NCBI GenBank assembly: GCA_963805875.1
Contig: CAWDWE010000007.1
Span: forward strand, 887,013 to 951,012
Direction: 5' to 3'
Source: Pirellulaceae bacterium
GTDB lineage: Bacteria; Planctomycetota; Planctomycetia; Pirellulales; Pirellulaceae
Length of the DNA stretch: 64,000 nt
The number at the start of each line of letters is the position of its first letter. Position 1 is the first letter of the stretch. Shown here in pieces: positions 45,402 through 60,442 of the stretch. The notes under the pieces are model-generated. The model was not told where the DNA came from. It saw only the letters and a list, made by a program, of their open reading frames with translations, and searched no databases. A program made the translations under genes and the position numbers.

Positions 45402-46589
45402 CTACTTTTCCAGCCGGCGGTGTTTCTTCAATATCTCTAGCAGGCGGTCGTGCGGGAGGGCGTGGACGGTGTGTCCGTCGACGCCGGTCATCGTTTCGGC
45501 GGCGACCAGGGCGTTGATGATCGCCTCTTCGGTCGCCTCGACGGTCGCGGCGAAGATCGGATTCAGGCTGGCGTTGCCGAGCATGTTGAGCGGAATCAGC
45601 CCGCCTTGTTCGGTGCCGATATTGCGATGGGCGGTCGAGAAAGCGATGAAGATGTCGCCCGAGCCGTTGTTGGCGGTCGCCCCCATTCGCCCAATGCCCA
45701 AGCTGGCCCGCTTGGCGATTCGTTTGAGTTGATGCGGCAGCACCGGCGCGTCGGTGGCGATGACGACGATGATCGAACCGTCTTCGTCCTGCGGCTTGAC
45801 CTCCTCTTCCGGCAACTCGGGCATCAAGTCGGCGATCTCCTGCCCGACCGGCACGCCGGCGATCCGCAATTGCTCGCGGTCGCCGAAGTTCGCCTGCACC
45901 AGCACGCCGACGGTATACTCACCGTGATCCGTCTCGATCATGCGCGACGCGGTGCCGATGCCCGCCTTAAAGTCAAACGCGCGCATCCCCGTGCCGCTGC
46001 CGACGTTGCCTTCTTCGACTGGGCCGGAGTGGGCGTCGTCGATGGCTTCAAATACGTGCTTGCGCTTGACATGAAAACCGTTAATGTCGTTGAGCAATCC
46101 GTCCCAAGTCTCAGCCACGACCGGCAGGCTCCAATCGAGATCGTCCACGTGCTTAGTGGACCACTGGATGATCGCCTGATGCACCGTCCCCACGCTGTGC
46201 GTGTTGGTGATGGCGATCGGGCCTTCCATAATGCCCGACTCTTCGATCCACGTCGTGCCGGTCATCTCGCCGTCGGCGTTGAGGGTGAACCACCCCGCGA
46301 AGACCTGGTTCTTGGCGTGCTTGTCTTCGGGAAAGACGACCGTCACACCGGTGCGAACCGGGCCTTTGCCTTCCTCCAGCGGACCGTCCCCCGAGATCAG
46401 CGTACAGTGCCCGACGCTCACGCCGGCGACATCCGTGATAGCATTCCACTCGCCGGGCGTTCCGTCCAGCGGCACGCCGAGATCTCGTGCCCGCGGCCGC
46501 TCGGGGGCATCCGCGGCGTGGGCCGATCCGTGCCAGCACGAAACGAGCGCCATGCAAGCAACTCTGGCGTATATTCTCACCAAGTACAT
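45402..46589 (-). CDS. P1/S58 family peptidase (DmpA/L-aminopeptidase-like, Ntn-hydrolase)
   Basis: Signal peptide. ...GPLDGTPGEWNAITDVAGVSVGHCTL...GSGTGMRAFDFKAGIGTASR...IVVIATDAPL... follows the DmpA/S58 pattern, including the G-S/T autoprocessing region. GGAG RBS before the ATG at 46589. Confidence 0.75.
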   Translation of the reverse strand: MYLVRIYARVACMALVSCWHGSAHAADAPERPRARDLGVPLDGTPGEWNAITDVAGVSVGHCTLISGDGPLEEGKGPVRTGVTVVFPEDKHAKNQVFAGWFTLNADGEMTGTTWIEESGIMEGPIAITNTHSVGTVHQAIIQWSTKHVDDLDWSLPVVAETWDGLLNDINGFHVKRKHVFEAIDDAHSGPVEEGNVGSGTGMRAFDFKAGIGTASRMIETDHGEYTVGVLVQANFGDREQLRIAGVPVGQEIADLMPELPEEEVKPQDEDGSIIVVIATDAPVLPHQLKRIAKRASLGIGRMGATANNGSGDIFIAFSTAHRNIGTEQGGLIPLNMLGNASLNPIFAATVEATEEAIINALVAAETMTGVDGHTVHALPHDRLLEILKKHRRLEK

Positions 46590-46899
46590 CGTATTTCTCC
46601 GCAGCTTTGACATCGCATCGGGTGCTATCGCCGGCGGGCGCTGTGGTCGGCGGCAAATTGAGAAAAGTTTCGTCAACCGGCACAATTTGCCTGACCGTTA
46701 CTACCGACATATGCCGATCACATTCACGAATATGCCGCAATTTTCCCCCAGAAAACCGCTTCGCCCCGCAAAAATACGCACCAAACCATTGCCGTCTGCT
46801 CGATAGGTAAACAGACGTAATAGGCGTGCGGGGCTGGCGGGATTCTCCCCACGCTGCTGCATATCCAAAACACTAGCCCATAGTTCATGGAGGGGCGTT

Positions 46900-48231
46900 G
46901 TGAGATCGAATAATCAAACACTCGCTAGTCTGCTGTTGGCCGCGTTGGCCACGGTTATGCTGCCGGGCCTCGTAGGGGCACAAGAGGCTGCTGACCAACC
47001 CACCGGTCCGTTTGCCGTCGAATACGTTCAGCCGCAAATCGGCGCGCAACCTCAGCCTTCGCAAGGCTTCTCGATCGAATACGTGCAACCGTCCGAAGCC
47101 GACGGCGACGCACATTTTAACCCGACCGAAGGTGCGGTTCGCACCGACGACGAGGACGAAGACGATTTCGATGCGGACGATTACGATGAAGACGATTACT
47201 ACGACCCGTGGGGTGGTTGGCTCCAGGCCGGTTTCACGGCCAATCCCTACGGCCCCAGCGACGGCCGCAACGGCACGGTCGGCTTGAACGACTTCGCCAA
47301 CCAAATCCAGGGCAACCAGTTCTGGCTGTTCGCCCAGCGCGTGCCGGTCTATGAGCCGTGCGTGTTTGATTACGGCTACCGGGTCGACGCCATCTACGGG
47401 ACCGACGGCCGGTTCTTCCAGATGCCGGATATCGAAGGGGGCTGGAACCAGACCAGCGACTACCAACTTTCGCTGCTGCGTTTCTATGTCGACTTGGCCT
47501 ACGACAAGTGGAACCTCCGCGTGGGCCGATTCGACTCGCTGGTCGGTTACGAATCGTTCGAGGCGCCGCAGAACTTCTTCTACTCGCACTCGTATGCGTT
47601 CAACTTCGGTACGCCCACCTCCTACATCGGCGGCATGCTATCTTACCAAGCGACCGAACAGCTTGAATTTAACCTCGTCTACGGCCGAGGATCCAATCAA
47701 TTGCTCAGCTCCCCGGCGAATACAGATGGCAACGCCATCTCCGGCGGTTTCTCGTGGAAAAGCATCGACGAGCAATCGTGGTCGGATTGCTATTTCCACA
47801 CGGATGATCTGAATGACAGCATCATCTACACCCTGGCCGCCGGAACCAAGCTCAACTGCAACACCGACGGCATGGTGCAAATCCTCCGCGGTAATCAGCG
47901 CGGCCAAACGTGGTACGGGGCCTACACCCAAATCTACCACTACATCAACGACTGCTGGTCGGCCGGAGTGCGGGCGGAGTGGTTCCGCGATGACGACGGC
48001 GGCGTCGTCACCGGCTTCGACAATATCAGCTCGACGACCGGGCCGTACGTTGGCAACTTCTACGCTTTGACCTTCGCGGTCAACTACGAACCGTGCCAAA
48101 ACTTCTCGATTCGCCCGGAAGTGCGGTACGACTGGTACGCCCAAGACAACGCGGGCGGCCCGCTGCCGTTCGACGATGGCACCAAGGCCGAACAGTTCCT
48201 GATGAGCCTGGACTTCATCTACACGTTCTAA
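46900..48231 (+). CDS. putative outer-membrane beta-barrel protein (porin-like)
   Basis: Signal peptide MRSNNQTLASLLLAALATVMLPGLVGAQEA. Highly acidic DE-rich N-terminal region. Alternating amphipathic beta-strand pattern rich in Y/W/G. C-terminal ...LDFIYTF terminal-aromatic OMP signature. Confidence 0.55.
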   Translation: MRSNNQTLASLLLAALATVMLPGLVGAQEAADQPTGPFAVEYVQPQIGAQPQPSQGFSIEYVQPSEADGDAHFNPTEGAVRTDDEDEDDFDADDYDEDDYYDPWGGWLQAGFTANPYGPSDGRNGTVGLNDFANQIQGNQFWLFAQRVPVYEPCVFDYGYRVDAIYGTDGRFFQMPDIEGGWNQTSDYQLSLLRFYVDLAYDKWNLRVGRFDSLVGYESFEAPQNFFYSHSYAFNFGTPTSYIGGMLSYQATEQLEFNLVYGRGSNQLLSSPANTDGNAISGGFSWKSIDEQSWSDCYFHTDDLNDSIIYTLAAGTKLNCNTDGMVQILRGNQRGQTWYGAYTQIYHYINDCWSAGVRAEWFRDDDGGVVTGFDNISSTTGPYVGNFYALTFAVNYEPCQNFSIRPEVRYDWYAQDNAGGPLPFDDGTKAEQFLMSLDFIYTF

Positions 48232-48691: not shown

Positions 48692-49430
48692 ATGAATGGG
48701 GAGCTGACTCGGGCGGCGGCCAATGCCGAACCGTCGGCGTTTTCGGATAGCCTTGTGGACGACTCGCCTGCGATGCGCGTCGGGCTGCGGCTGCTGCAAC
48801 AGGCTTACGACTACAGCCGCGACTTGCAACGCGTCGTCTGGGACTTCGCCGTGGAGATCGACGTCCTCCGCCGGGCGGGGCTGAACAATAACGATCTGCG
48901 CTGGTTGCATTATAAGGGTTATATCGAGCACGGCCGGGAGATCACCGAGCCGGGCGACATCGACCGCAACTTCCAACGCCGTGACGACCTCACGCTCTCC
49001 GCCGAATCATGCTTCGTCCTGACCGAGGACGGCGCCCGCGTCTTGGGGATGGCCGGCCGCTGCCAAGCGACGGTGACGGCTGGTCAAACGAACGGTCATT
49101 TTCCGGTTGTCAGGGCGGTTGAAACTGACGAACCCGACGCGCTGGTTCCCTGCTGGGACTCCGATCTGCGCGAGTTTCAGTTCAATGGTTCACTCGTCAA
49201 GCGTTATCGCACGCCGTCTCCCAATCAAGAGACGATCCTCGCGGCCTTTGAAGAAGAGGATTGGCCCACGCGGATCGACGACCCGCTCCCCGGTGCCGGA
49301 CATTGATCCGAAGCAGCGCCTGCACGACACGATCAAGAGCTTGAATCGCAATCAGCTCAACCGCTTAGTGCGCTTCCGCGGCGACGGCACGGGCGAAGGG
49401 GTGCGCTGGGAGCCAATCAGCGGGGAGTAG
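48692..49430 (+). CDS. hypothetical protein. Apparent frame disruption near 49300.
   Basis: ORF 48692..49306 continues as ORF 49107..49430 (...PISGE*) in the adjacent frame. No recognised domain. Confidence 0.4.
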
Positions 49431-49700: not shown

Positions 49701-49848
49701 TACTTCGCCGATCTCATTCGGGCGGCTGCGCTGCCCCAGACTACCCCTAGGTCTGCCATTGTAGTTTGCTGCGGCGACTGGTCTGATTGGCATCCATCTA
49801 CCTTGGCGCTTCCGCCTTTTGCCACTCGTTCGACACCGCCGACCGCCC

Positions 49849-50703
49849 ATGTCTGACTTTACGCCGCTTGGTATGGGCTGGCACCCGGACGTGCCGGACA
49901 TGCGGGATTTTACAATCGACAGCCCGGCCGTGCGGAGCCTGCTGGACCGCTTGCCGGCGCGACCCGGCGCAGCCGGATCAATCGCCGCAGGCAGACCTGC
50001 GAGAGTACTTCCCGGCGACCCGCGATCAACAGCGGCTGCGGGCGTCGTGCGCGCACGCTTGCCTGGGCATGTACCAGTATTTCGAGCGCCGGGCCTTGGG
50101 GCGCATCGACCATCCGTCGCATCTGTTTCTCCATCGGATGATCCGCAAGCTGATGCGCGTCCGCGGCAATGTGGATACGAACCTCCGCACCGCGCTGAAG
50201 GCGCTGGCCCGCTTCGGCGCGCCGCCAGAGGACTATTGGCCCTACGAATGCGACAACCTGGACGCCGAACCTGACCCGTTCCTCTACGCCTTTAGCAGCG
50301 ATTGCCGGGCGATGGTTTACCTGCGGTTGGACCGCCCCGGCCGCAAAGGGGCGGCTGTGCTGGGCCGCGTCAAAGCATTCTTGCAGGCCGGTTTTCCCGT
50401 GGCCTTCGGCTTCGCCGTGCCGAGTTCGCTCACCGCCGAGGGCGAAATCCCCTATCGCCCGCGCTACGACGCCGTGCAGGGCGGACAGGCGGTGGTGGCG
50501 GTCGGCTACGACGACGACCCGCGCGGAAGCCAAGCGGCGCACTGCTGGTGCGCAGCTCTTGGGGCCAGCAGTGGGGCGAAGCAGGCTACGGTTGGCTGCC
50601 TTACGCTTACGTCGAAAAGCGAATGGCCCTGGACTTCTGGGTCATGTTGCGACCCGACTGGCTCGAGTCGGGTGAATTCTTCAGACCAGAGGACGTGGGA
50701 TAG
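49849..50703 (+). CDS. papain-like cysteine peptidase (C1A family). Two apparent frame disruptions (~49975, ~50535).
   Basis: Frame 2 DLREYFPATRDQQRLRASCAHAC (Gln/Cys active-site region). ...VVAVGYDDD.... Frame 1 ...LLVRSSWGQQWGEAGYGWLPYAYV (Asn-Ser-Trp region). N-terminal MSDFTPLGMGWHPD in frame 1. Confidence 0.6.
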
Positions 50704-50729
50704 GCGTCCAGCCTGTCAGGCACGCCAAG

Positions 50730-50811
50730 GGGTCGGGAGTCTTTTTCGCGGAACACGCGATCGAGCGCTGAGTCGCTGGAAGCGAAAAAGACTCCCGACC
50801 CCCTCCGCGTC
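50730..50811. repeat. long perfect inverted repeat (21-bp stem, ~36-nt loop)
   Basis: GGGGTCGGGAGTCTTTTTCGC ... GCGAAAAAGACTCCCGACCCC, 30 nt after the peptidase stop. Confidence 0.55.
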
Positions 50812-51101
50812 ACCGGCGCACTCATCACATCGCGCACATTCGTCCGCGCCGCGCGCCGACCGTAGTCCCCCAGCGCTTCCCCAACCTTCCCGTAGTGATC
50901 GGCGAAACCTCGGACATACTGAGGCTCGTTGTCGATTGCCTCAATCTCGTGGTTTCGATCGGCAGACAAGTCCGGGGGGACACAAGCACGCTTAGGCTCA
51001 TGGGAACACTGATGTAATTCCAGACTCGCGCCGCCTATCGCGCTTCTACTCCTTTTCCTTTCTCCCTTACCAACACGGACGGCGGCTAGTAGGAATCTTC
51101 C

Positions 51102-52649
51102 GTGAGCATGCACAACGACGCCTATCAATCCGAGTTGCAAGTTTCCGCCGTCCACACCAACGGCAACGGCGATGGCCGCGCCAATGGCAATGGTCACAGT
51201 AATGGCCACAGCAATGGCAACGGCCAGACAGCCGTAGTCGACGGCCGCGCCAATCCCATCCTCGACAAACTCGTCGGTTGGGACACCATCTCGACCACGC
51301 CGCTGAAAGATCCCGTCGCCCCCGAGGCGATCTCGCATCGCGACCTGCTCGAAGGCGAGTTCTGGCAGCGGCTACCGGGCTATGCGGATGTCGACACCGA
51401 GACATTTCTCGACCACAAGTGGCAGGCCCGCCAATCGGTCACGAACTTGAAGCGGCTGCAAGAGACGGTAGGCGAATTGGCCCCGCAGTCGTTTTACGAC
51501 GACGTCGAGGCGGGCCGCAAGGCCGCGCCGATGGCGATGCGAATCTCGCCTTACCTGATGGCCCTGATGAATTGGGAAGACCCGTACAACTGCCCCCTGC
51601 GGACGCAGTTCATGCCGGTGCGAAAGAACCTGATGCAGGATCATCCCAAGATGCATCTCGACTCGCTGCACGAGCAAGACGACTCGCCCGTGCCCGGGCT
51701 GACGCATCGCTACATCGACAAGGCCCTCTTCCTGCCGCTGAACACCTGCCCCGTCTACTGCCGCTTCTGCACCCGCAGCTACTCGATCGGCGCCGACACC
51801 GAAGAGGTGACGAAGGTCGCCCTGCGGGTGGACTACGACCGCTGGCGAGCGGCGTTCGCCTACGTGCAGTCGCGTCCGGAGCTGGAAGATATCGTCATCA
51901 GCGGCGGCGACGCCTTCAACCTGCGGGCCGATCAACTGGAAGCAATCGGCACGACGCTTCTGAACATGCCGAACATCCGCCGGCTGCGGATCGCCACCAA
52001 GGGGCTGGCGATCATGCCGCAGAAGATTCTCTCCGACGACGCTTGGCTTGACGCGGTCACCCGCCTGGTGAAGATGGCCCGCGGCCTGCAAAAGGAAGTC
52101 GTGATTCACACGCACTTCAATCACCCGTCGGAAATCACCTGGATTTCCCGCGAGGCGCTGGCCATTTTGCACGAGCGGGGCGTCATCGTTCGCAATCAGG
52201 CGGTGATGCAGCGGGGCGTGAACGATAGCATCGAGACGATGATTACGCTCGTGCGGCGGCTGGCCTATATCAACGTCCAGCCGTATTACGTCTACGTCTG
52301 CGACATGGTCCCCGGCGTGGAAGACCTGCGAACCAGCATCGCCACCGCCGAGCGGATCGAAAAGCACGTCCGCGGCACCACCGCCGGCTTCAACACCCCG
52401 ATGTTCGTCTGCGACGCACCCGGCGGCGGCGGCAAGCGAGACTTGCACTCTTACGAATATTACAATCGCGACTCAGGCATCGCGGTATATACGGCCCCGT
52501 CGATCAAGCCGGGGAAATTCTTCCTCTACTTCGACCCGCTTCACAGCCTCAGCGAGGAGTATCAACAGCGCTGGCAAGTCGAAAGCGAACAACAGCGGAT
52601 GGTCGAGCAGGCCACCAGCGAAGCCAAGCGAAATCTCGCGATGTGCTGA
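51102..52649 (+). CDS. kamA: lysine 2,3-aminomutase (KamA family radical SAM)
   Basis: CPVYCRFCTR radical-SAM CxxxCxxC. KamA-family blocks ...PGLTHRYIDKALFLPLNTC..., ...ISGGDAF..., ...IHTHFNHPSEIT..., ...GFNTPMFVCDAPGGGGK. Unusual NG-rich N-terminal insertion (NGNGDGRANGNGHSNGHSNGNGQ). Confidence 0.9.
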   Translation: MSMHNDAYQSELQVSAVHTNGNGDGRANGNGHSNGHSNGNGQTAVVDGRANPILDKLVGWDTISTTPLKDPVAPEAISHRDLLEGEFWQRLPGYADVDTETFLDHKWQARQSVTNLKRLQETVGELAPQSFYDDVEAGRKAAPMAMRISPYLMALMNWEDPYNCPLRTQFMPVRKNLMQDHPKMHLDSLHEQDDSPVPGLTHRYIDKALFLPLNTCPVYCRFCTRSYSIGADTEEVTKVALRVDYDRWRAAFAYVQSRPELEDIVISGGDAFNLRADQLEAIGTTLLNMPNIRRLRIATKGLAIMPQKILSDDAWLDAVTRLVKMARGLQKEVVIHTHFNHPSEITWISREALAILHERGVIVRNQAVMQRGVNDSIETMITLVRRLAYINVQPYYVYVCDMVPGVEDLRTSIATAERIEKHVRGTTAGFNTPMFVCDAPGGGGKRDLHSYEYYNRDSGIAVYTAPSIKPGKFFLYFDPLHSLSEEYQQRWQVESEQQRMVEQATSEAKRNLAMC

Positions 52650-52787
52650 TCGTTGACCCGCGGCCGAGTCTCGTCATCACCCTTCGTAGCAGAACTCGTG
52701 AGAGTTTTGGCGCCGAAGTCTCACGACTTCGGCTACATGAATTGTCGACTCATCCTCCACTCCCGCTGTTACCTCACATAAACACCT

Positions 52788-55700
52788 ATGAGCACACTCA
52801 CCAAAGAATTCGCTGCCTTGGAGACCGGAACCGCCACTGTCCACGGCCTGTTCGAAGAGCAAGCCGACCAGCGTCCTACAGCGACGGCGCTGGTCTTCGG
52901 CGATGAGCAAATCTCCTATCAGGAACTCGACGAGCGGGCCAACCAACTGGCGCATTACCTCCGCTCGCTGGGCGTGGGGCCGGGCGAGTTGGTGGGTCTG
53001 TATTTGGAGCGATCCGAGAAGGCGATCATCGCCATCCTGGCGATTCTCAAGGCGGGCGGCGGCTACATCCCCATCGACCCCACGCACCCTTGGGAACGGG
53101 TCAAGCACATTCTGGACGAAGCCAAGGTGTCGGTGATGATCACCGCCTCCGAGTTGCCCGAAGAGTCCGAAGCGTTCTTCCATGGCACGGTCGTCGATTG
53201 GGACAATGACCGAAAGAAGATCGCTCGGCAATCGACCGAGCGGATTTCCGCCGACGAATCAGGCGTCTCGCCGGGCGACATCTGCTACGTGCTCTACACA
53301 TCCGGTTCGACCGGTCGCCCCAAGGGCGTGATGACCGAACATCGCAACGTGGTGCGGTTCGTGCGGTCGTTCAACGAAATTGTGCAGCTCGATTCGGACG
53401 ACCGCGTGTACCAGGGTTTTGCACTCGGCTTTGACGGCTCGGTTGAAGAGATGTGGATGGCCTTCTCCAACGGGGCGCGGTTGGTCGTCGGCCCGCCGGA
53501 GGCCGCCCGCGTGGGGAGCGAGGTCGCCCGGGTGTTCCGCGAGCAACAAATCACCGTGTTTTCGACCGTGCCGACGTTCCTCTCGCTAATTCAAGAAGAA
53601 CTCCCCAGCGTGCGGTTGATCATCGTCAGCGGCGAAGCCTGCCCGCCCGAGGCGGTGCAGCGTTGGGCCATTCCGAGCCGGCGAATGCTGAACGTCTACG
53701 GACCCACCGAAACAACCGTCAACTCCACAGCAAAACTTTGTACCCCGGGCGAGCCGGTCACGATTGGCAGACCGCTTCGCGGCTACACGATGCACATCCT
53801 TGACGAACAGCAACGCCCCGTCCCGCGGGGCGAAGCGGGCGAGCTGTACATCGGCGGCGTCGGGCTCGCCCGCGGGTACTTGAATCAACCGGAACTGACG
53901 CAGAAGCAATTCGTCCCCAATTGTCTAGGCGACAAGGCCAGCGGCCCCCGGCTGTACAAGACGGGCGACCTGGTGAAGTGGGACGAGGACGGCGAGCTGC
54001 TGTTTTTGGGCCGCATCGACCGGCAGGTGAAAGTCCGCGGCTTCCGCATTGAACTTTCCGAAATCGAATCGGTGCTCCGCGAACACGACATGATTCATCA
54101 GGCCGTGGTCACAGTCGTCGAACGCGACGGGCTAAAGCATCTGGCCGCCCACGTCACCTCGCCCTGCAACGGTTCGTTCGACCGCGACGACGTGCGCGAC
54201 AGCCTCCGCGAACGCCTGCCCGTTTACATGGTGCCCAGCTTCCTGGATGTTCTGCCCGAACTGCCGATGCTCGACAGCGGCAAGGTCGACCGCAAGAAGC
54301 TGCCCGAACCGGCGCTGCCGCTGGTGGCTTCCAAACGCACGATCGTCGAAGCAGAGAGCGAAACCGAACGCCGCATCGTCGAGGTCTGGAAGGATCTCTG
54401 CAAAACGCCGACCGTCTCGGTCGAAGACGACTTCTTCATGGACCTGGGCGGCTATTCGCTGCTGGCAGGGCAAACGATTACGGCCCTGCGAAACGACCAC
54501 GGCTTCGACGTGGCGATTCGCGATCTGTACAAACACACCACCGCCCGCCGCCTCGCCCGTTACATCGAAGACCACGCCCAAGCGTGCCCGGCCGTAGAAA
54601 CCACCGCCGGCGATACCGAGCGACGCTCCGCCCGCGAGGTTTTTCATAGCGTGCCGCGTCTGACCCGCTGGAGCGTCTATGTCCTGCAATTGATCAGTCT
54701 GATCGCCATCAACGGGCTGCAAATGCTGCCGCTGTTGATCGTGGCGCTGTTGGGCGTCGAGGTCTATTACGGCGGGCTGGCGTTTGGGCAGTTCCTCACC
54801 ATCGTGTTCGTGATGGTCTTCGCCGCCCCGCCGCTGGGCATCCTGCTGACGATTGCCACGAAATGGCTGCTGATCGGGCGATTCAAAGCGGGCGAGTATC
54901 CACTCTGGACGTTTTACTATTTTCGCTGGTGGCTGGTGACGCGGATGCAGGAAATGAGCTGGATCGAGCTGTACACCGGCACACCCATCGTCAGCCTCTA
55001 CTTCCGCCTGATGGGGGCGCGGGTCGGCAAGAACTGCTTGCTCGATACCACCGAGGCCCTGGCGTTCGACCTACTCACCATCGGCGACGACACCTGCATT
55101 GGCACGCAAACGCAGCTTACCGGTTATCGCGTGGAAGACGGACTGTTGAAGATCGGCACGATCGAAGTCGGCTCGCGATGCTTCATCGGCACACATTGCT
55201 GCTTGGACATCAACAGCAAGATGGGCGACGATACCTGCCTGGACGATCTCTCGCTGCTGCCGACGGGCGAGGCCGTTCCCGACGGCGAATCGCGGCGCGG
55301 CTCGCCGGCGGCGGCGGCCGTGGTCAGCGTTCCGCGGGTGAATGAAGAGAGAGCGGCCCAGCGGCATCCCTTCTGGTGGGGGCTGGCGTTTTTCATTGCC
55401 GGCGAAATTGTGGGCGAAATGGTGCTGCTCACCACCCTGCCGCCGCTGGCGATCATCTACGGCTGCTTCCTGTGGGGCGGCATTTCGGGCGCGGTCGCGG
55501 GCGTGTTCCTATCCATCCCCATCGGCCTCGTCGCCTTCTGTCTGATGATCGCCACCTACAAGGCCATCATCATGCGGAAAGCCAAGCCGGGCGTCTATTC
55601 GACCGAAAGCTGGTTCTACCTCCGCAAATGGTCGGCTGATTTGCTGCTGACGATCGCCGGCCGAGCGTTAAAAGGGGTCTACACCACGATCTTCCTGCCG

Positions 55701-56759
55701 ACCTGGCTCAGAATGCTGGGAGCGAAGATCGGCAAATGGGCGGAGATTGCGACCGTTTCGGAAGTTTCGCCGGACCTGATCACCATCGGCGAGGGAAGCT
55801 TCTTCGCCGACGGCAGCATGGTCGGCGGCCGCCGGTTGTTCCGCGGGCATGTGCAACTGGCGCGCAATAAAGTCGGTAATCACAGCTTTGTCGGTAATAA
55901 CGCCCTGCTGCCGATGGGCGCCTCGTTGGGCGACAACTGCCTGCTAGGCGTGATTTCCACCCCGCCCGGCGGCGTCGGCGCCACCACGCCCGACACCACC
56001 GAATGGCTCGGTTCGCCGGCGTTCCAACTTCCCAACCGCAAAAAGGTCGGCGGCTTCGCCGATGAAGAGACCTTCAACCCAACCTTAAAGCTTTGCCTCA
56101 TCAGGACTTGCATCGACACGCTGCGAATCCTGATTCCTTACTTCATCTGGGCAAGCGGCATGCTACTGTTCATTACTGCCGCGGTGGCGGGGTATTTTTA
56201 CCTGCCGCTGTGGGCCGTGTTCGCGCTGTTGCCGCTGGTGTCGTCAGCCGTTGCAGTCGGCTCCGCCCTGTCGGTCGTCCTCCTCAAATGGGTCGTCATG
56301 GGCACCTTCAAGCCCGTGATCAAACCGCTGTGGTGCGTCTGGATTTGGACCAACGAGATGATGATGGGATCGTTTGAAACGGTCGTGCAGGGAGTCGTCG
56401 AATCGTGGCAGGGGACACCCTACGCCTGCTGGTTCATGCGGCTGATGGGCTGCAAGATCGGCAAGCACGTTTACTTGGAATCGATTTTGTTCTCCGAATT
56501 CGACTTGGTGGAAATCGGCGACTACGCCGCGCTCAACCTGGGATCGATCGGCCAAACGCACTTGTTTGAGGATCGCATTTTTAAGTCGTCTTACGTGAAG
56601 ATCGGGGCCGAGTGCTCCGTGGGGAATATGACAGTCGTGCTGTACGACACGGAAATGAAAGACGGATCGTCCATCGGATCGCTGTCGCTGCTGATGAAGG
56701 GAGAAACCCTCGCCGCCGACACGCGGTGCATCGGCATCCCGATGCGGGAGATTAAGTAA
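52788..56759 (+). CDS. Pls/PosA-type iterative NRPS-like synthetase: A domain + T domain + six TM helices interleaved with three tandem C-terminal soluble repeats. No condensation or thioesterase domain.
   Basis: A-domain cores YTSGSTGRPKGV (A3), FDGSVEEMW (A4), NVYGPTETT (A5), GELYIGGVGLARGY (A6), YKTGDL (A7), GRIDRQVKVRGFRIELSEIE (A8), LPMLDSGKVDRKKL (A10). Carrier motif FFMDLGGYSLLAG (Ser at ~54455). Then TM pair / soluble ~140-aa domain, three times. Each soluble domain opens with W.FY.R.W...RM(L)G..(I/V)GK and contains hexapeptide-like [LIV]G stretches. This is the diagnostic epsilon-poly-L-lysine synthetase architecture. Confidence 0.85.
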   Translation: MSTLTKEFAALETGTATVHGLFEEQADQRPTATALVFGDEQISYQELDERANQLAHYLRSLGVGPGELVGLYLERSEKAIIAILAILKAGGGYIPIDPTHPWERVKHILDEAKVSVMITASELPEESEAFFHGTVVDWDNDRKKIARQSTERISADESGVSPGDICYVLYTSGSTGRPKGVMTEHRNVVRFVRSFNEIVQLDSDDRVYQGFALGFDGSVEEMWMAFSNGARLVVGPPEAARVGSEVARVFREQQITVFSTVPTFLSLIQEELPSVRLIIVSGEACPPEAVQRWAIPSRRMLNVYGPTETTVNSTAKLCTPGEPVTIGRPLRGYTMHILDEQQRPVPRGEAGELYIGGVGLARGYLNQPELTQKQFVPNCLGDKASGPRLYKTGDLVKWDEDGELLFLGRIDRQVKVRGFRIELSEIESVLREHDMIHQAVVTVVERDGLKHLAAHVTSPCNGSFDRDDVRDSLRERLPVYMVPSFLDVLPELPMLDSGKVDRKKLPEPALPLVASKRTIVEAESETERRIVEVWKDLCKTPTVSVEDDFFMDLGGYSLLAGQTITALRNDHGFDVAIRDLYKHTTARRLARYIEDHAQACPAVETTAGDTERRSAREVFHSVPRLTRWSVYVLQLISLIAINGLQMLPLLIVALLGVEVYYGGLAFGQFLTIVFVMVFAAPPLGILLTIATKWLLIGRFKAGEYPLWTFYYFRWWLVTRMQEMSWIELYTGTPIVSLYFRLMGARVGKNCLLDTTEALAFDLLTIGDDTCIGTQTQLTGYRVEDGLLKIGTIEVGSRCFIGTHCCLDINSKMGDDTCLDDLSLLPTGEAVPDGESRRGSPAAAAVVSVPRVNEERAAQRHPFWWGLAFFIAGEIVGEMVLLTTLPPLAIIYGCFLWGGISGAVAGVFLSIPIGLVAFCLMIATYKAIIMRKAKPGVYSTESWFYLRKWSADLLLTIAGRALKGVYTTIFLPTWLRMLGAKIGKWAEIATVSEVSPDLITIGEGSFFADGSMVGGRRLFRGHVQLARNKVGNHSFVGNNALLPMGASLGDNCLLGVISTPPGGVGATTPDTTEWLGSPAFQLPNRKKVGGFADEETFNPTLKLCLIRTCIDTLRILIPYFIWASGMLLFITAAVAGYFYLPLWAVFALLPLVSSAVAVGSALSVVLLKWVVMGTFKPVIKPLWCVWIWTNEMMMGSFETVVQGVVESWQGTPYACWFMRLMGCKIGKHVYLESILFSEFDLVEIGDYAALNLGSIGQTHLFEDRIFKSSYVKIGAECSVGNMTVVLYDTEMKDGSSIGSLSLLMKGETLAADTRCIGIPMREIK

Positions 56760-56770
56760 GGCCGACGGAT

Positions 56771-57775
56771 ATGACGCACAAGAATTACTTCGAGATCAAA
56801 GCGGACACCTACCGCGAGTTGGGCGCGAGCCAGGGAAAGCTGTTTCGCGCGTACGTGCAGGCGGCATTGGTGGAGAAGAAGGCGCTGACGACCGTCCCGT
56901 GGAACGACATCGTCGTCCAGGCCAAGCCGTACCTGGAAGCCACGTCGGCCGTTTTCCCCAAACTGATCGAAGAAGCGCAAGGCTATGCCGAAGGGGCGCA
57001 AGTTCCCTTTAGCGACTTGTGGCTGTTGCTCTGCGAAGACGAACTGGAAGACGACGACGCGGAGAAATGCACCACGATCGTCACCAATGAAGGGGCACTG
57101 CTCTCGCACAACGAGGACTGGACCCCCGCGGCCGAAGACTACATTTGCCTGCTCCGCAAGACGGTGGCGGGCTTCACGATTTTGGAACTGCATTACATCG
57201 GCACGTTGGGCGGCAACGCCGTGTCGATCAATTCGCACGGCGTCGTTCAATCGATCAACTCACTCACACACGCCGACGGGCGAGTCGGCGTGCCGCGGAA
57301 CATGATCGCCCGTTGGATGTCGCAAACCAGCGACCCCGACCGCGACTTCGCCCGCATGAAGACCATTCGCCGGGCGGCTGGCTACCACCACGGACTGTTG
57401 AACACGAAGAGACAACTATGGAGCATCGAATGCTCCGCTAAGCGGCAGAAACTCCGCCGCCCGAAGTTTCCGTTCGTGCATACGAATCACTATCAGACGG
57501 AACTGGAAGTGTTGGAGCATGACGACGGACAGCAAGGAACGTACTCCCGTTGTGAGCGGGCGCAGAAACAAGTCGAGCCGACAATGACCGGCGCGGCCCT
57601 GAAAACACTAACTCGGGACGTCGCCGACGGCGCCGTGCTAAGCATTTTTAATGAGCGAACCATCGGGCAAATGATTTTCGATTTGAAAGCGATGACCGCC
57701 AGCGTTTGGCTGAAGCGCGAAGCGTCCGCCGGGTGGATTGACTACAGCCTCGCCGATTTTAGGGGAGGCGATTGA
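56771..57775 (+). CDS. C45 family Ntn-hydrolase (acyl-CoA:6-APA acyltransferase/peptidase-like)
   Basis: Starts 12 nt after the synthetase stop. Candidate autoprocessing/nucleophile site ...AEKCTTIVTNEGALLSHNEDW.... Overall C45/choloylglycine-hydrolase-like length and pattern. Confidence 0.55.
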   Translation: MTHKNYFEIKADTYRELGASQGKLFRAYVQAALVEKKALTTVPWNDIVVQAKPYLEATSAVFPKLIEEAQGYAEGAQVPFSDLWLLLCEDELEDDDAEKCTTIVTNEGALLSHNEDWTPAAEDYICLLRKTVAGFTILELHYIGTLGGNAVSINSHGVVQSINSLTHADGRVGVPRNMIARWMSQTSDPDRDFARMKTIRRAAGYHHGLLNTKRQLWSIECSAKRQKLRRPKFPFVHTNHYQTELEVLEHDDGQQGTYSRCERAQKQVEPTMTGAALKTLTRDVADGAVLSIFNERTIGQMIFDLKAMTASVWLKREASAGWIDYSLADFRGGD

Positions 57776-57841: not shown

Positions 57842-58291
57842 ATGAACTTGCGACAAAGCTGTTTGAGTCTGGCCCTGTTGACGATGATCGGCGCCTATGC
57901 GGCCGCCCAAGCGCCGGACTTGCCGGCGCCCACCGTATCGCGCGCCGATGCGCCGCGCTACCAGGTCGACACCCATGAGTTTAGCTACAACGGCTACGAC
58001 TACGAAGTCTTCATGAAGCTCGACCGCCACACGGGTCAGACCTGGCGATTCCACGCCTCGAAGGCGACCTGGACCCCCATCGCCGAACCGAAAGACGCCG
58101 GCCCCGAGCCGACCGATCACAACCGCTACGAGTTCTTCGTCCACGACTACCGCAAGGCCAGCGGCGGCGACGAAGAAATGTTCCTGCGGATGGACATGGA
58201 AGCGGGCAAGACCTGGTACTACCGCGGCGTTTTCGCCGGATGGAAAGAACTGCCCGAGGGAACGACCCCCGAGGCGGCCGCCGCGGAGTAG
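57842..58291 (+). CDS. secreted protein with two copies of a novel ~45-aa repeat (..[KR]hD..TG.TW.[FY]...)
   Basis: GAGGAG RBS. Signal peptide MNLRQSCLSLALLTMIGAYAAAQA. Repeats FMKLDRHTGQTWRFHA...WTPIAE and FLRMDMEAGKTWYYRG...WKELPE. Confidence 0.55.
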   Translation: MNLRQSCLSLALLTMIGAYAAAQAPDLPAPTVSRADAPRYQVDTHEFSYNGYDYEVFMKLDRHTGQTWRFHASKATWTPIAEPKDAGPEPTDHNRYEFFVHDYRKASGGDEEMFLRMDMEAGKTWYYRGVFAGWKELPEGTTPEAAAAE

Positions 58292-58312: not shown

Positions 58313-58351
58313 TCCATCCGGCTGCGGTCTTCGCAGCCGGATGGTGGTTTT
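58313..58351 (+). terminator. rho-independent terminator
   Basis: CCATCCGGCTGCGGTCTTCGCAGCCGGATGG + TGGTTTTTG, 22 nt after the stop. Followed by the GGTGACAGGGTGAGGGGGTGACAATCACCCTGTCACCCCCTCACCCTGTCACC palindrome at 58365-58430. Confidence 0.65.
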
Positions 58352-58444
58352 TGACAGAGTGACAAGGTGACAGGGTGAGGGGGTGACAATCACCCTGTCA
58401 CCCCCTCACCCTGTCACCCCTTCACCCCCTCACTGCCCGTCACC

Positions 58445-59062
58445 ATGAACTACCGCATATCAACGTTCTCCGCACTCGCCTGCCTCGCGGCACTCGCCGC
58501 CGGCTGCGCCACGAGCAACGACAATTCCCCCATCGTCCCGCCGCCGGAAGTCGCCGCCGCCGCCGACGTGGAGGTGGATGTCGACCGGGGCGCGATCGAG
58601 TCCCCGCCGTGGGCTTTGCCCGCAACGGGCGACCTGCCGCCGGACCCGGCTGTGGCGGACAGCCCGAGCGAAGTCGTTGTCGTCAAAGCGGCGCCCGAAA
58701 CCGACGCATCCGAACTGTTCGACGGCATACCTCCGCGGGCCAAGCAAAAAGAATCACAGTTCCAAATGCTCTCGCATACCTTCGATACGAGCGGTGGTAG
58801 TGATCGGGTGTCGATCAAGATTGACCGCTTCAGCGGGAAGACGTGGCGGCTCGATCCCGCTTCGGTGTCGTGGCTGCCCATCGCCGAAGCCGATGCCGCG
58901 GCCGCCCCCGAAGCCGCCGCCAATGCCCGCTACGCGCTGCAGGTGCAAGCGGGCGAGGCCTCCAAGTCGCCGACCGCAACCTTCCTGCGGATGGACCTAA
59001 TCACCGGCGACGCCTGGCTGTATACGCAGCAGCAAGGCGCCTGGAAATCGCTCGCCCCGTAG
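58445..59062 (+). CDS. lipoprotein paralog of 57842..58291 (same two-repeat motif)
   Basis: MNYRISTFSALACLAALAAGC lipobox. Pro/Ala-rich linker. Repeats IKIDRFSGKTWRLDP...SWLPIAE and FLRMDLITGDAWLYTQQQGAWKSL. Confidence 0.55.
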   Translation: MNYRISTFSALACLAALAAGCATSNDNSPIVPPPEVAAAADVEVDVDRGAIESPPWALPATGDLPPDPAVADSPSEVVVVKAAPETDASELFDGIPPRAKQKESQFQMLSHTFDTSGGSDRVSIKIDRFSGKTWRLDPASVSWLPIAEADAAAAPEAAANARYALQVQAGEASKSPTATFLRMDLITGDAWLYTQQQGAWKSLAP

Positions 59063-59320
59063 CACCACTCATTTCGGCGAGCTTGACCCACCCTACGGGG
59101 CAGGTGGGGCTCCCAGCCCGCATTGGGGGCGCTGCCCCACTTTCCGGCAAAACCTCGCCAACCGGTCTCGACTGAATGAATTTTTCTTCAGTATCGGGGC
59201 ATTTCGCGAACGATCCAATTTATGGATGCGATGATTGTATGTGGACAGAGAAAGCCCAGCTTCCGCCTATCGTATAGGTGGATGTGATGCGGCTGAATTT
59301 CTACGGGGGTGCCAAGCTTT

Positions 59321-60442
59321 ATGAATTTCCTCAAGCGTGAAACTGCTTTGGCCGAGCGTCTGACGCCGGGATTGCTGGCCCAGTTGGAAGCAGTTCCCTT
59401 CGAGAAGAAAGAGTCGCGCGGCAACCCGACAATCGAGATGTTTCGCGCCGCCAAGGGGCCGGCGCTGATCGTTTCCAAAGAGCTGGGCGGAATCGGCGCT
59501 TCGCCGGTCGAGGCGATTCGCTACCAACGCGCGATGGGGGCGGCGGCGCCTTCCATGGCCCTGGCGACCAACATGCACCACTTCACGGTGGCCCTGCTGA
59601 ATGACTATGCGGAAAGCTCCGCCGCAATACGCTACCTCCTCAAGGCAGCGGTGGAAAACAGTTGGTATCTCGCCTCCGGTTTCGCCGAAGGGGCCACGGC
59701 CCAAAGCACCCTCACTCCGAACATGATCGCCCATCCCAACGGGCCAAACTACGTCGTCAGCGGACGGAAGAAACCATGCAGCTTGTGTGAAAGCATGGAT
59801 GTCTTGACCGCTTCGGTCGGCGTGCCCAATGAGACGGGCGGTGAACGCTTCGGCGTGGCGATCATTCCCGCCAACTCGGTCGGTATGACAATTAAGCCCT
59901 TTTGGACCAGCACCATCTTGGCGGGGGCCGAGTCCGAAGAGGTGATCCTCGAAGATGTCGTCGTCACCGAGCAGAACATGTTCCTGCCGGGCGAGGAGCT
60001 GGACCCGGCCGCCATGCAAGCCGGCAGCTTCGTCTGGTTTCAATTGCTCACCTCAAGCTGCTACCTGGGCGTCGGCAGCGCCCTGATGACTCAACTCATC
60101 AAGAGCCAAAAGGGCTCGGCCGAGGGGCGAATCGATGTCGCCTGCGACTTGGAAGGGGCAATGGCCATGCTGGAAGGGGTCGCCCACGACTTCCAAACCG
60201 GCCCGCTCGACGACGCCCTGATCACGCGGGCCTTGTTCGCCCGTTACACCGTGGCGCAAGCCCTGATTCGCACGACCAGCCGCGCCGCGGAAATGCTCGG
60301 GGGCATGGCCTTCATGAGCAGCGAACGGGTCAGCTACCTGATGGCCGCTGTCCGCTGCCTGGCCTTTCACCCGCCGTCCAAATCGTCCGTCAGCGACAGC
60401 CTGGACGGATATCTCAGCGGCCAGCCGTTTCATTTTGTGTAG
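59321..60442 (+). CDS. acyl-CoA dehydrogenase-like family protein
   Basis: Length and ...SKELGGIGASPVEAIRYQRAMGAA... / ...LGGMAFMSSERVSYLMAAVRCLAFH... resemble the ACAD N- and C-terminal helical domains. Catalytic residue not verified. Confidence 0.45.
   Translation: MNFLKRETALAERLTPGLLAQLEAVPFEKKESRGNPTIEMFRAAKGPALIVSKELGGIGASPVEAIRYQRAMGAAAPSMALATNMHHFTVALLNDYAESSAAIRYLLKAAVENSWYLASGFAEGATAQSTLTPNMIAHPNGPNYVVSGRKKPCSLCESMDVLTASVGVPNETGGERFGVAIIPANSVGMTIKPFWTSTILAGAESEEVILEDVVVTEQNMFLPGEELDPAAMQAGSFVWFQLLTSSCYLGVGSALMTQLIKSQKGSAEGRIDVACDLEGAMAMLEGVAHDFQTGPLDDALITRALFARYTVAQALIRTTSRAAEMLGGMAFMSSERVSYLMAAVRCLAFHPPSKSSVSDSLDGYLSGQPFHFV

What the first reader, a model, noticed from the sequence alone, without database searches (positions are those of the whole stretch)
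51102..57775. KamA + epsilon-poly-lysine-synthetase-like NRPS + C45 hydrolase: predicted homopoly(beta-lysine/lysine) pathway in a planctomycete
Three co-directional, tightly spaced genes (gaps of 138 nt and 12 nt).
- Lysine 2,3-aminomutase (CPVYCRFCTR radical SAM) makes L-beta-lysine.
- The 1323-aa synthetase has a complete adenylation domain (A3, A4-A8, A10 cores), one thiolation domain (GGYS instead of the usual GG[HD]S), then three pairs of TM helices interleaved with three paralogous ~140-aa soluble domains.
- There is no condensation or TE domain.
- That A-T-(TM2-C)x3 layout is specific to iterative, template-independent polyamino-acid synthetases (Pls/PosA type). A C45/Ntn hydrolase follows, a candidate polymer-processing or self-resistance enzyme.
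- A beta-lysine-forming enzyme directly upstream suggests the monomer is beta-lysine. An epsilon-poly-L-lysine-like cationic homopolymer is also possible.
- I know of no such locus reported from Planctomycetota.
- A second oddity is the NG-rich low-complexity N-terminal insertion in KamA.
Basis: partly seen in the sequence, partly recalled or inferred. Interest (0 to 1): 0.85.

Follow-up and report, generated by a model that had tools for sequence, protein, structure and literature searches.

The report
Predicted poly-beta-lysine synthesis gene cluster
Three adjacent genes in a planctomycete genome most likely make beta-lysine and link it into a positively charged, antibiotic-type polymer; this pathway was proven in an actinomycete in 2022, so it is a new host and a slightly different gene set, not a new kind of system.

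Summary
Three co-directional genes encode a KamA-family radical-SAM aminomutase (51102-52649), a 1323-aa Pls/PosA-family single-module synthetase (52788-56759) and a C45 Ntn hydrolase (56771-57775). The synthetase has an A domain, a PCP, six TM helices in three pairs and three paralogous soluble domains. It has no C or TE domain.

The beta-lysine reading is well supported.
- The A-domain specificity code is DGESISVVNK. That is the code published for the one characterised epsilon-poly-L-beta-lysine synthetase (Streptoalloteichus hindustanus, Yamanaka 2022), which was itself found through an adjacent lysine 2,3-aminomutase.
- 108 of the 120 best homologs carry this code.
- A KamA gene lies within 8 kb in 20 of 33 genome loci with this code, across several phyla. 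It is absent from 5 of 5 close homologs with other codes.

The architecture and chemistry are therefore already known, and Pls-like genes in Planctomycetota are already annotated or listed. No planctomycete product has been shown.

Two points are modestly new. The C45 hydrolase recurs with the beta-lysine-type synthetase. In this lineage a porin and a small acidic secreted protein frame the synthetase whichever code it has, whereas kamA and C45 appear only with the beta-lysine code.

Interest is moderate, about 0.4.

The parts
51102..52649 (+). kamA-like gene: a KamA-family radical-SAM/PLP 2,3-aminomutase, the predicted lysine-to-beta-lysine step. ATG 51108 is an alternative start.
   Evidence: TIGR00238 scores 240 bits against a cut-off of 199. 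Match to 2A5H at E 2e-62, with the CxxxCxxC motif (residues 216-225) and the equivalents of Asp293 (residue 401), Asp330 (residue 439) and the PLP-binding Lys337 (residue 445) all conserved.
51159..51224 (+). NG-rich low-complexity segment (residues 20-41) in the variable N-terminal tail of KamA.
   Evidence: Translation. Short 12-nt tandem repeat at 51187-51218. The segment is absent from the orthologs in L036, L001 and L038, whose conserved region starts at our residue 46-53.
52650..52787 (+). 138-nt kamA-synthetase spacer with two hairpins (52690-52709 and 52712-52733) and no T-tract.
   Evidence: Sequence. Fold energy -38 kcal/mol, z = -2.3. No terminator-like site was called here. The spacer is not conserved in the closest relative L038. 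No Rfam family reaches threshold.
52788..56759 (+). Pls/PosA-family single-module synthetase, the predicted epsilon-poly-beta-lysine synthetase.
   Evidence: TIGR02353 scores 559 bits against a cut-off of 423. Aligns end to end with PosA at about 32% identity. Specificity code DGESISVVNK.
52851..54302 (+). Adenylation domain (residues 22-505). Code residues: D216, G217, E220, S259, I279, S281, V303, V311, N312, K499.
   Evidence: Pfam AMP-binding and AMP-binding_C. TIGR01733. Code positions derived, and consistent with the published PosA residues D217, M218, E221, H260, N280, T304, V312 and S313.
54369..54566 (+). Carrier (PCP) domain, residues 528-593. The phosphopantetheine-attachment serine is Ser557, in the motif DLGGYSLL.
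   Evidence: PF00550, E 1.3e-10. Motif statistics in the homologs. Coordinates.
54672..56756 (+). C-terminal membrane polymerisation domain: TM1-2 (629-696), C1 (697-865), TM3-4 (866-930), C2 (931-1110), TM5-6 (1111-1178), C3 (1179-1323).
   Evidence: Hydropathy profile. Paralogy of the three units. Hexapeptide-repeat hits. TIGR02353 matched over its full length.
56771..57775 (+). C45-family autoproteolytic Ntn (Cys) hydrolase/acyltransferase with no signal peptide. The predicted nucleophile is Cys100 (nt 57068-57070).
   Evidence: NF040521 scores 155 bits against a cut-off of 85, and PF03417 also matches. Cys100 aligns with Cys103 of isopenicillin N acyltransferase 2X1D. Cys100 and the motif H113-N-E-D-W117 are at least 95% conserved in 120 homologs. 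Linkage to the synthetase is shown.
57842..58291 (+). Small acidic secreted protein (149 aa, signal peptide, two internal repeats). Possibly a fourth gene of the transcription unit.
   Evidence: Sequence and GAGGAG ribosome-binding site. Orthologs lie immediately downstream of the synthetase or C45 gene in L038 and L042 at 40-45% identity. pI of the mature part about 5.1.
58314..58344 (+). Strong intrinsic-terminator-like hairpin (14 pairs, 10 of them GC, followed by TGGTTTTTGA). Probably the end of the transcription unit.
46900..48231 (+). OmpL-like beta-barrel porin (BBP2). It is a recurrent upstream neighbour of the synthetase in this lineage. Membership of the system is tentative.
   Evidence: PF07642, E 6e-51. 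Orthologs upstream of the synthetase in L038 (49% identity) and L042 (45%), and a more distant one in L035 (31%).

Best explanation
This is a compact biosynthetic cassette for a cationic isopeptide homopolymer of beta-lysine, of the epsilon-poly-beta-lysine type.

Step 1 (inferred from family membership and active-site residues). The KamA-family radical-SAM/PLP enzyme converts L-lysine to beta-lysine (3,6-diaminohexanoate).

Step 2 (domains shown, chemistry inferred).
- The single adenylation domain of the 1323-aa synthetase selects beta-lysine, makes the adenylate and loads it as a thioester on Ser557 of the carrier domain.
- The C-terminal domain has six TM helices and three tandem acetyltransferase-like soluble domains, all on the cytoplasmic face because the helices come in pairs.
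- It repeatedly lets the epsilon-amino group of a free monomer or growing chain attack the thioester. No template, condensation domain or thioesterase is involved.

Step 3 (inferred, weakest). The cytoplasmic C45 Cys-Ntn hydrolase cleaves beta-lysyl isopeptide bonds. This would protect the producer from intracellular polycation, or trim or recycle the polymer. It would be the counterpart of the polymer-degrading enzyme encoded beside pls in Streptomyces.
For: Family and architecture:
- The family thresholds are passed and no C or TE domain is found.
- There are six TM helices in three pairs, and the three units are paralogous.
- The protein aligns end to end with the biochemically characterised PosA.

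Specificity code:
- The code is DGESISVVNK.
- It equals or nearly equals (9-10 of 10) the code given for the characterised epsilon-poly-beta-lysine synthetase of S. hindustanus (PMC10522769 main text and Supplementary Table 2).
- Asp and Glu at code positions 1 and 3 are the residues conserved for diamino substrates. Gly at position 2 fits the rule that a smaller residue there admits a longer substrate.
- 108 of the 120 best homologs share the code.

KamA linkage:
- A KamA gene lies within 8 kb in 20 of 33 genome loci with this code. The loci come from Planctomycetota, Alphaproteobacteria and Actinomycetota.
- The two genes overlap by 1 nt in L035 and 4 nt in L036.
- KamA is absent in 5 of 5 close homologs with other codes: L025, L042, L043, the P0030 locus and L044. 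By my own arithmetic the hypergeometric p is about 0.017.
- The partner KamAs keep the Fe-S motif, both lysine-epsilon-amine-binding Asp residues and the PLP-binding Lys, even where they share only 35-37% identity with ours.
- In Pseudonocardia (L011), aspartate kinase and DapA precede kamA, so lysine-supply genes are part of the cluster.

C45 linkage:
- C45 is present in 9 of 33 beta-code genome loci, in variable position and orientation.
- 5 of 7 sampled C45 homologs lie within 3 kb of such a synthetase.
- It is absent from all five non-beta-code controls.
- The nucleophile Cys is invariant.
Against: - No experiment exists on this gene or on any planctomycete homolog.
- The code match rests on one characterised enzyme. 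I could not read its primary paper, and the secondary source gives I in its text and V in its table at position 5.
- KamA falls below NCBIfam's equivalog cut-off for lysine 2,3-aminomutase (256 bits against 525). It matches only the first 29 of the 127 positions of the LAM C-terminal domain. Substrate and stereochemistry are therefore inferred, not assigned.
- 13 of 33 beta-code loci show no KamA within 8 kb, though some of those contigs are short.
- No phosphopantetheinyl transferase was seen next to the three genes here, unlike in L035, L040 and L043.
- A 138-nt spacer with hairpins separates kamA from the synthetase, so co-transcription is not shown.
- Two C45 homologs (L037, L039) lie in unrelated contexts.
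- Nothing in the C45 sequence indicates its substrate.
Confidence: 0.75

Rival explanations
1. The synthetase polymerises ordinary L-alpha-lysine (classical epsilon-poly-L-lysine), and kamA is a neighbour with a separate job.
For: It belongs to the same family as Pls. Close homologs at 52-55% identity carry a lysine-like code, DAESIGTVDK or DAESVGSVDK.
Against: The code differs from the Pls code DAESIGTVVK at positions 2, 6, 7 and 9 and matches the beta-lysine enzyme instead. The lysine-like-coded homologs are exactly the ones that lack kamA. kamA overlaps the synthetase gene in relatives.
Confidence: 0.05
2. The same machinery uses a different basic beta-amino acid (for example beta-arginine or beta-ornithine), or makes only short oligomers or a capped or esterified derivative instead of a long free polymer.
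For: KamA fails the equivalog cut-offs for the lysine, arginine and glutamate aminomutases alike. Chain length and end groups cannot be read from sequence. A related enzyme with an unknown code responded to arginine.
Against: Both Asp residues that bind the lysine epsilon-ammonium in 2A5H are conserved. The code is identical to that of the beta-lysine enzyme. Lysine-supply genes (ask, dapA) sit in the Pseudonocardia cluster.
Confidence: 0.12
3. kamA serves catabolism (lysine fermentation), osmolyte synthesis (N-epsilon-acetyl-beta-lysine) or EF-P modification, is transcribed separately, and lies next to the synthetase by chance.
For: A 138-nt spacer with two hairpins separates the genes. KamA-family enzymes do have these other roles. 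The EpmB and AblA models both give partial scores.
Against: No beta-lysine 5,6-aminomutase, AblB-type acetyltransferase or EpmA was found among the neighbours. The adjacency recurs in 20 of 33 loci across phyla and tracks the A-domain code. The hairpins lack a T-tract and no terminator was called there.
Confidence: 0.03
4. The C45 protein is not a polymer amidase. It could instead be an acyltransferase that caps or modifies the monomer or polymer, or a hydrolase that clears a dead-end by-product such as the beta-lysine lactam formed from the activated monomer.
For: The founding C45 member, isopenicillin N acyltransferase, is a transferase. The protein is cytoplasmic, whereas the polymer is expected outside the cell. 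Homologs occur without a synthetase in L037 and L039.
Against: No acyl-CoA-supplying gene recurs in the clusters. Other beta-code clusters carry non-homologous hydrolases in the same place: a PF00144 serine hydrolase in L011 and a DLH hydrolase in L040. That fits a hydrolytic role better.
Confidence: 0.3

Closest known systems
Epsilon-poly-L-beta-lysine synthetase with adjacent lysine 2,3-aminomutase, Streptoalloteichus hindustanus NBRC 15115 (Yamanaka et al., ACS Chem Biol 2022, as cited in PMC10522769 and PMC9606270)
   Same: The same two-gene logic of KamA next to a Pls-type A-PCP-membrane-domain synthetase. The same specificity code, DGES(I/V)SVVNK.
   Different: - The host here is a diderm planctomycete, not an actinomycete.
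- Against the nearest actinomycete locus I could read (Pseudonocardia L011), the synthetase is about 47% identical and KamA about 35%.
- A C45 hydrolase is attached here. L011 instead has ask and dapA upstream and a PF00144 hydrolase downstream.
- I could not read the primary paper, so I do not know the full gene content of the type cluster.
Pls, epsilon-poly-L-lysine synthetase of Streptomyces albulus (A domain in PDB 7WEW)
   Same: The same family (TIGR02353) and architecture, and the same iterative template-free mechanism. The A domain matches 7WEW at E 1e-87.
   Different: The Pls code is DAESIGTVVK and its substrate is alpha-lysine. It has no aminomutase partner. To my own knowledge, its neighbouring degrading enzyme PldII is a membrane metalloprotease, not a C45 enzyme (the paper is cited in PMC9606270, ref. 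53).
PosA, delta-poly-L-ornithine synthetase of Acinetobacter baumannii (PMC10522769; PDB 8G95)
   Same: Aligns end to end at about 32% identity over about 1300 residues. Asp and Glu are conserved at code positions 1 and 3. It is the first characterised member from a Gram-negative bacterium.
   Different: The PosA code is DMEHNGTVSK and its substrate is ornithine. Met at position 2 restricts chain length, where ours has Gly. It has no KamA or C45 partner.
Lysine 2,3-aminomutase of Clostridium subterminale (PDB 2A5H)
   Same: The radical-SAM CxxxCxxC motif, the PLP-binding lysine, and Asp293 and Asp330 are all conserved.
   Different: Ours has an extra N-terminal region of about 90 residues, including an NG-rich tail. 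Nearly all of the LAM C-terminal domain is missing. It scores below the AblA equivalog cut-off.
Isopenicillin N acyltransferase, peptidase family C45 (PDB 2X1D)
   Same: The same family model and the same aligned nucleophile within a Cys-Thr-Thr motif.
   Different: The similarity is weak (E 3e-5). The residue before the Cys is Lys/Arg/His, not Gly. The genomic context is a polyamino-acid synthetase, not beta-lactam synthesis.

Membership tests
Pls/PosA family (cationic homopoly-amino-acid synthetases) | A single adenylation domain followed by one carrier domain | tested here: met
   TIGR01733 at 454 bits. PF00501, PF13193 and PF00550 all match.
Pls/PosA family (cationic homopoly-amino-acid synthetases) | No canonical condensation or thioesterase domain | tested here: met
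   A Pfam scan of the whole protein returns only AMP-binding, AMP-binding_C, PP-binding and Hexapep.
Pls/PosA family (cationic homopoly-amino-acid synthetases) | A C-terminal domain of about 700 aa (TIGR02353) scoring above the curated cut-off | tested here: met
   559 bits against 423. Residues 632-1318 cover model positions 1-694 of 695.
Pls/PosA family (cationic homopoly-amino-acid synthetases) | Six TM helices in three pairs, interleaved with three tandem related soluble domains | tested here: met
   Hydropathy profile. Pairwise BLASTP of the three units gives E 4e-20, 6e-20 and 1e-9.
Pls/PosA family (cationic homopoly-amino-acid synthetases) | Asp at code position 1 and Glu at position 3, for diamino-acid substrates | tested here: met
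   D216 and E220. The criterion comes from PMC10522769.
Pls/PosA family (cationic homopoly-amino-acid synthetases) | Iterative synthesis of an isopeptide-linked homopolymer | not testable with these tools
   Needs an enzyme assay or product analysis.
Epsilon-poly-beta-lysine synthetase subgroup | A-domain specificity code DGES(I/V)SVVNK | tested here: met
   DGESISVVNK, obtained by MAFFT against a GrsA anchor and by tblastn mapping.
Epsilon-poly-beta-lysine synthetase subgroup | A lysine 2,3-aminomutase gene adjacent to the synthetase | tested here: met
   kamA lies 138 nt upstream on the same strand. The pairing is conserved in 20 of 33 related loci.
Epsilon-poly-beta-lysine synthetase subgroup | The product is epsilon-linked L-beta-lysine polymer | not testable with these tools
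   Needs LC-MS or NMR of the product.
Lysine 2,3-aminomutase (KamA/AblA) | Radical-SAM CxxxCxxC motif, PLP-binding Lys, and the two Asp residues that bind the lysine epsilon-ammonium (Asp293 and Asp330 of 2A5H) | tested here: met
   Alignment to 2A5H. Residue numbers. Conserved in the partner KamAs.
Lysine 2,3-aminomutase (KamA/AblA) | NCBIfam equivalog score (TIGR03820, cut-off 525.4 bits) | tested here: not met
   255.8 bits. Only the KamA-family subfamily model TIGR00238 is passed. I therefore file it as a KamA-family enzyme that most likely works as a lysine 2,3-aminomutase, not as an assigned equivalog.
Lysine 2,3-aminomutase (KamA/AblA) | The complete LAM C-terminal domain (PF12544) | tested here: not met
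   Only model positions 3-29 of 127 match.
Peptidase C45 (autoproteolytic Ntn acyltransferase/hydrolase) | Family model scoring above the cut-off | tested here: met
   NF040521 at 155 bits against 85. PF03417 at 69 bits against 23.
Peptidase C45 (autoproteolytic Ntn acyltransferase/hydrolase) | A nucleophilic Cys at the self-cleavage site | tested here: met
   Cys100 aligns with Cys103 of 2X1D and is at least 95% conserved in 120 homologs. Self-cleavage itself is not testable here.

The most novel reading that the evidence does not exclude
In this planctomycete lineage the synthetase sits in a fixed frame. An OmpL-like BBP2 porin lies upstream and a small acidic, two-repeat secreted protein lies downstream. 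The frame is kept whether the A-domain code is lysine-like (L042) or beta-lysine (the window and L038). kamA and the C45 gene appear together only with the beta-lysine code.

The most novel reading has two parts:
1. The C45 enzyme is a dedicated beta-lysyl-isopeptide amidase. That would be a new activity for the family, needed because ordinary peptidases do not cut beta-aminoacyl amides.
2. The porin and the acidic periplasmic protein form a handling and export route for a polycation across a diderm envelope. No such route has been described for any producer of these polymers.
Probability: 0.2. Interest if true: 0.6.

Novelty: new member of a known kind. Interest (0 to 1): 0.4.

Why it matters
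Cationic isopeptide polymers are used as food preservatives (epsilon-poly-lysine), and are being explored as antimicrobials and as cell-penetrating carriers. Only one beta-lysine polymer producer has been characterised.

The same code-plus-KamA signature occurs in Planctomycetota, Alphaproteobacteria, Bdellovibrionota, Myxococcota and others. This suggests the polymer is far more widespread than the literature implies, and it offers a cultivable-phylum target for natural-product work. The recurrent C45 hydrolase is a concrete candidate for an enzyme that cuts beta-lysine isopeptide bonds, which would be useful for polymer tailoring and for understanding self-resistance.

None of this changes how the system is thought to work.

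Tried and rejected
- Source contig: an exact-sequence look-up of the synthetase found nothing, and the window's genome is not in the genome collection. The organism is therefore identified only as a planctomycete, from PSCyt1/PSCyt2, DUF1501, sulfatase and BBP2 genes and from its nearest relatives.
- Primary paper: the Yamanaka 2022 paper on epsilon-poly-beta-lysine is not held. I relied on two papers that cite it.
- Literature: a search for C45 together with poly-lysine synthetases gave only irrelevant hits.
- RNA elements: I looked for a riboswitch or other known RNA upstream of kamA or in the kamA-synthetase spacer. Nothing reaches an Rfam gathering score, and the spacer is not conserved in the closest relative.
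- Other window neighbours: apart from the BBP2 porin (46900-48231), the two small secreted paralogs (57842-58291, 58445-59062) and the ACAD-like ORF (59309-60442, conserved only in L038), none of the tested ORFs (S58 peptidase, 48692-49306, 49787-50995 and further ORFs downstream to 63989) has a counterpart beside related synthetases. I leave them out of the system.
- C45 charge: I asked whether an unusually acidic C45 might hint at polycation binding. Its pI of 6.0 is ordinary (median 5.8 among homologs), so this gives no support.
- L018 is labelled Leptospira interrogans but mirrors a Proteobacteria MAG locus (L019). I treat the label as doubtful and do not count it as a separate phylum.

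Full report
**What is there.** The three ORFs exist exactly as described (translations).
- Gene 1 (51102-52649) is a KamA-family radical-SAM enzyme. It scores 240 bits on TIGR00238 against a cut-off of 199. It stays below the equivalog cut-offs of the lysine, arginine and glutamate 2,3-aminomutase models and of EpmB.
- Against the Clostridium lysine 2,3-aminomutase structure 2A5H (E 2e-62), gene 1 keeps the CxxxCxxC cluster motif and the PLP-binding lysine. It also keeps both aspartates (Asp293 and Asp330 in 2A5H) that hold the epsilon-ammonium group of lysine.
- Gene 2 (52788-56759) passes the curated 'Pls/PosA family non-ribosomal peptide synthetase' model over its whole length (559 bits against 423) and the adenylation-domain model.
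- Pfam sees AMP-binding, AMP-binding_C, PP-binding and hexapeptide repeats in gene 2, with no condensation or thioesterase domain.
- A hydropathy scan of gene 2 gives three hydrophobic blocks, each two helices long (629-696, 866-930, 1111-1178). The three TM-pair-plus-soluble-domain units are clearly paralogous (E 4e-20, 6e-20, 1e-9).
- Gene 3 (56771-57775) passes the C45 proenzyme model. Its Cys100 aligns with the nucleophile Cys103 of isopenicillin N acyltransferase and is invariant in 120 homologs.
- The intergenic gaps are 138 nt and 11 nt.
- The window is planctomycete DNA. It carries PSCyt1/PSCyt2, DUF1501, sulfatase and BBP2 genes, and the nearest relatives are Pirellulales or Planctomycetaceae MAGs.

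**Which monomer.** I extracted the ten specificity-code residues by aligning the A domain and its 120 best homologs to a GrsA-PheA anchor. The mapping was cross-checked against the published PosA residues D217, M218, E221, H260, N280, T304, V312 and S313.
- Our code is DGESISVVNK.
- PMC10522769 gives the code of the only characterised epsilon-poly-L-beta-lysine synthetase (Streptoalloteichus hindustanus) as DGESISVVNK in its text and DGESVSVVNK in Supplementary Table 2.
- The alpha-lysine, ornithine, DAB and DAP enzymes have clearly different codes: DAESIGTVVK, DMEHNGTVSK, DFECLSAVTK and DFEYVGTVTK.
- The same paper shows that code position 2 sets substrate length (Phe for DAP/DAB, Met for Orn, Ala for Lys). 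Gly here fits a still bulkier or longer substrate.
- Of the 120 best homologs, 108 have DGES(I/V)SVVNK.

**Context elsewhere.**
- A scan of one genome per species returned 34 loci. 33 of them have the beta-lysine code.
- A KamA homolog lies within 8 kb in 20 of those 33. The hosts are Planctomycetota, Xanthobacteraceae and Hyphomicrobiales, other Proteobacteria, and the actinomycete Pseudonocardia xinjiangensis.
- In two planctomycete-type relatives the kamA stop overlaps the synthetase start by 1 nt or 4 nt.
- The partner KamAs are not all orthologous. The one in L035 is 35% identical to ours, although its synthetase is 54% identical. All keep the catalytic and lysine-binding residues. This argues that the supply of beta-lysine is what is selected.
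- In Pseudonocardia the cluster starts with aspartate kinase and dihydrodipicolinate synthase, which are lysine-supply genes.
- As negative controls I looked at five close homologs (39-55% identity) with other codes: L025, L042, L043, the P0030 locus and L044. None has a KamA or C45 gene within 8 kb.
- By my own arithmetic, 20 of 33 against 0 of 5 has a hypergeometric probability of about 0.017.

**The hydrolase.**
- C45 homologs occur in 9 of the 33 beta-code genome loci, in different positions and orientations.
- Eleven contig lengths are shared between the synthetase hit list and the C45 hit list. I take this as an inference that the two genes share those contigs.
- Of seven C45 homologs whose contigs I fetched, five lie within 3 kb of such a synthetase (L035, L036, L038, L040, L041). 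Two do not (L037, L039).
- The protein has no signal peptide.
- Other beta-code clusters carry unrelated hydrolases at the same place: a PF00144 serine hydrolase in L011 and a DLH-family hydrolase in L040.
- I therefore favour a hydrolytic role on beta-lysyl isopeptide bonds, either self-protection or turnover. This would be analogous to the degrading enzyme encoded beside pls in Streptomyces. It remains an inference, and a transferase or by-product-clearing role is not excluded.

**A lineage-specific frame.**
- The closest relative (L038; synthetase 57% identical, KamA 69%) shares this order: BBP2 porin, kamA, synthetase, C45, a small secreted protein, and an ACAD-like gene.
- L042 has a synthetase 55% identical to ours with the lysine-like code DAESIGTVDK. 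It keeps the porin (45% identity) and the small secreted protein (45%) but has neither kamA nor C45.
- The small protein is acidic (mature pI 4.4-5.1) and has two internal repeats. It is duplicated in the window (57842-58291 and 58445-59062).
- With only three loci this may be inherited synteny. It does suggest that kamA and C45 travel as a beta-lysine module, and that the porin and small protein belong to polymer handling in a diderm cell.

**Transcription.**
- No promoter-like site was called on the + strand.
- The kamA-synthetase spacer folds into two hairpins without a T-tract. It is not conserved in L038 and matches no Rfam family.
- A strong terminator-like hairpin follows the small secreted gene at 58314-58344. 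The unit may therefore be kamA, synthetase, C45 and the small secreted gene.

**Comparison and novelty.**
- The architecture, the mechanism and the KamA pairing are those of the published epsilon-poly-beta-lysine system. The family is named in NCBI annotation, including in the planctomycete Bythopirellula goksoeyrii.
- A planctomycete Pls homolog with a DAP code is listed in PMC10522769. antiSMASH reports a NAPAA cluster in Singulisphaera.
- I found no report of the beta-lysine type, or of any such polymer, from a planctomycete, and none of the C45 association.
- The gene is a new member of a known kind.
- The two 'oddities' are minor. GGYS is the majority carrier motif of the clade. The NG-rich stretch is species-specific low-complexity sequence in a variable N-terminal tail.

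Noticed in passing
window 45402-46685 (-): A secreted peptidase of family S58 (the DmpA/BapA beta-aminopeptidase and NylC family; E 8e-119, with a signal peptide) lies 4.4 kb upstream of kamA. Enzymes of this family cleave N-terminal beta-amino acids and nylon-6 oligomers, and epsilon-poly-beta-lysine is chemically a 3-amino-substituted nylon-6. The gene is not conserved beside related synthetases, so the proximity may be chance.
   Followed up: partly
window 46900-48231 (+); L038 1346-2779; L042 5449-6744; L035 15669-17210: An OmpL-like BBP2 beta-barrel porin recurs near the synthetase in four planctomycete-type loci, including one that has neither kamA nor C45.
   Followed up: partly
window 57842-58291 (+) and 58445-59062 (+): Two tandem paralogs of a small acidic protein with two internal repeats. 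The first has a signal peptide and the second a lipoprotein-type signal. Orthologs sit directly downstream of the synthetase or C45 gene in L038 and L042. There is no Pfam match.
   Followed up: partly
window 58350-58435: A long, near-perfect palindrome built from GGTGACA/TGTCACC-like units lies just after the terminator-like hairpin. It gives only sub-threshold microRNA-like Rfam hits on both strands.
   Followed up: no
window 59309-60442 (+): A 377-aa protein with weak acyl-CoA dehydrogenase-like matches. It is 66% identical to a gene at the same position in L038 and is absent from the other related loci.
   Followed up: no
L011 3854-13796 (Pseudonocardia xinjiangensis): An actinomycete version of the cluster: aspartate kinase, DapA, a KamA-like gene, the synthetase (code DGESVSVVNK), a 231-aa protein of unknown function, and a PF00144 beta-lactamase-family serine hydrolase.
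   Followed up: partly
L035 11021-11824; L040 7055-7852; L043 11977-12759: A phosphopantetheinyl transferase (ACPS) gene is part of, or next to, several related clusters. None was seen beside the three genes in the window.
   Followed up: no
L018 (labelled Leptospira interrogans) compared with L019 (Proteobacteria MAG): The two loci have the same gene order and nearly the same coordinates for KamA, synthetase and C45. This suggests that the Leptospira assembly contig is contamination or a recent transfer.
   Followed up: no
L040 7994-8800; L041 11309-12109: A CBP_BcsS-family gene (PF17036) lies close to the C45 gene in two proteobacterial-type clusters.
   Followed up: no
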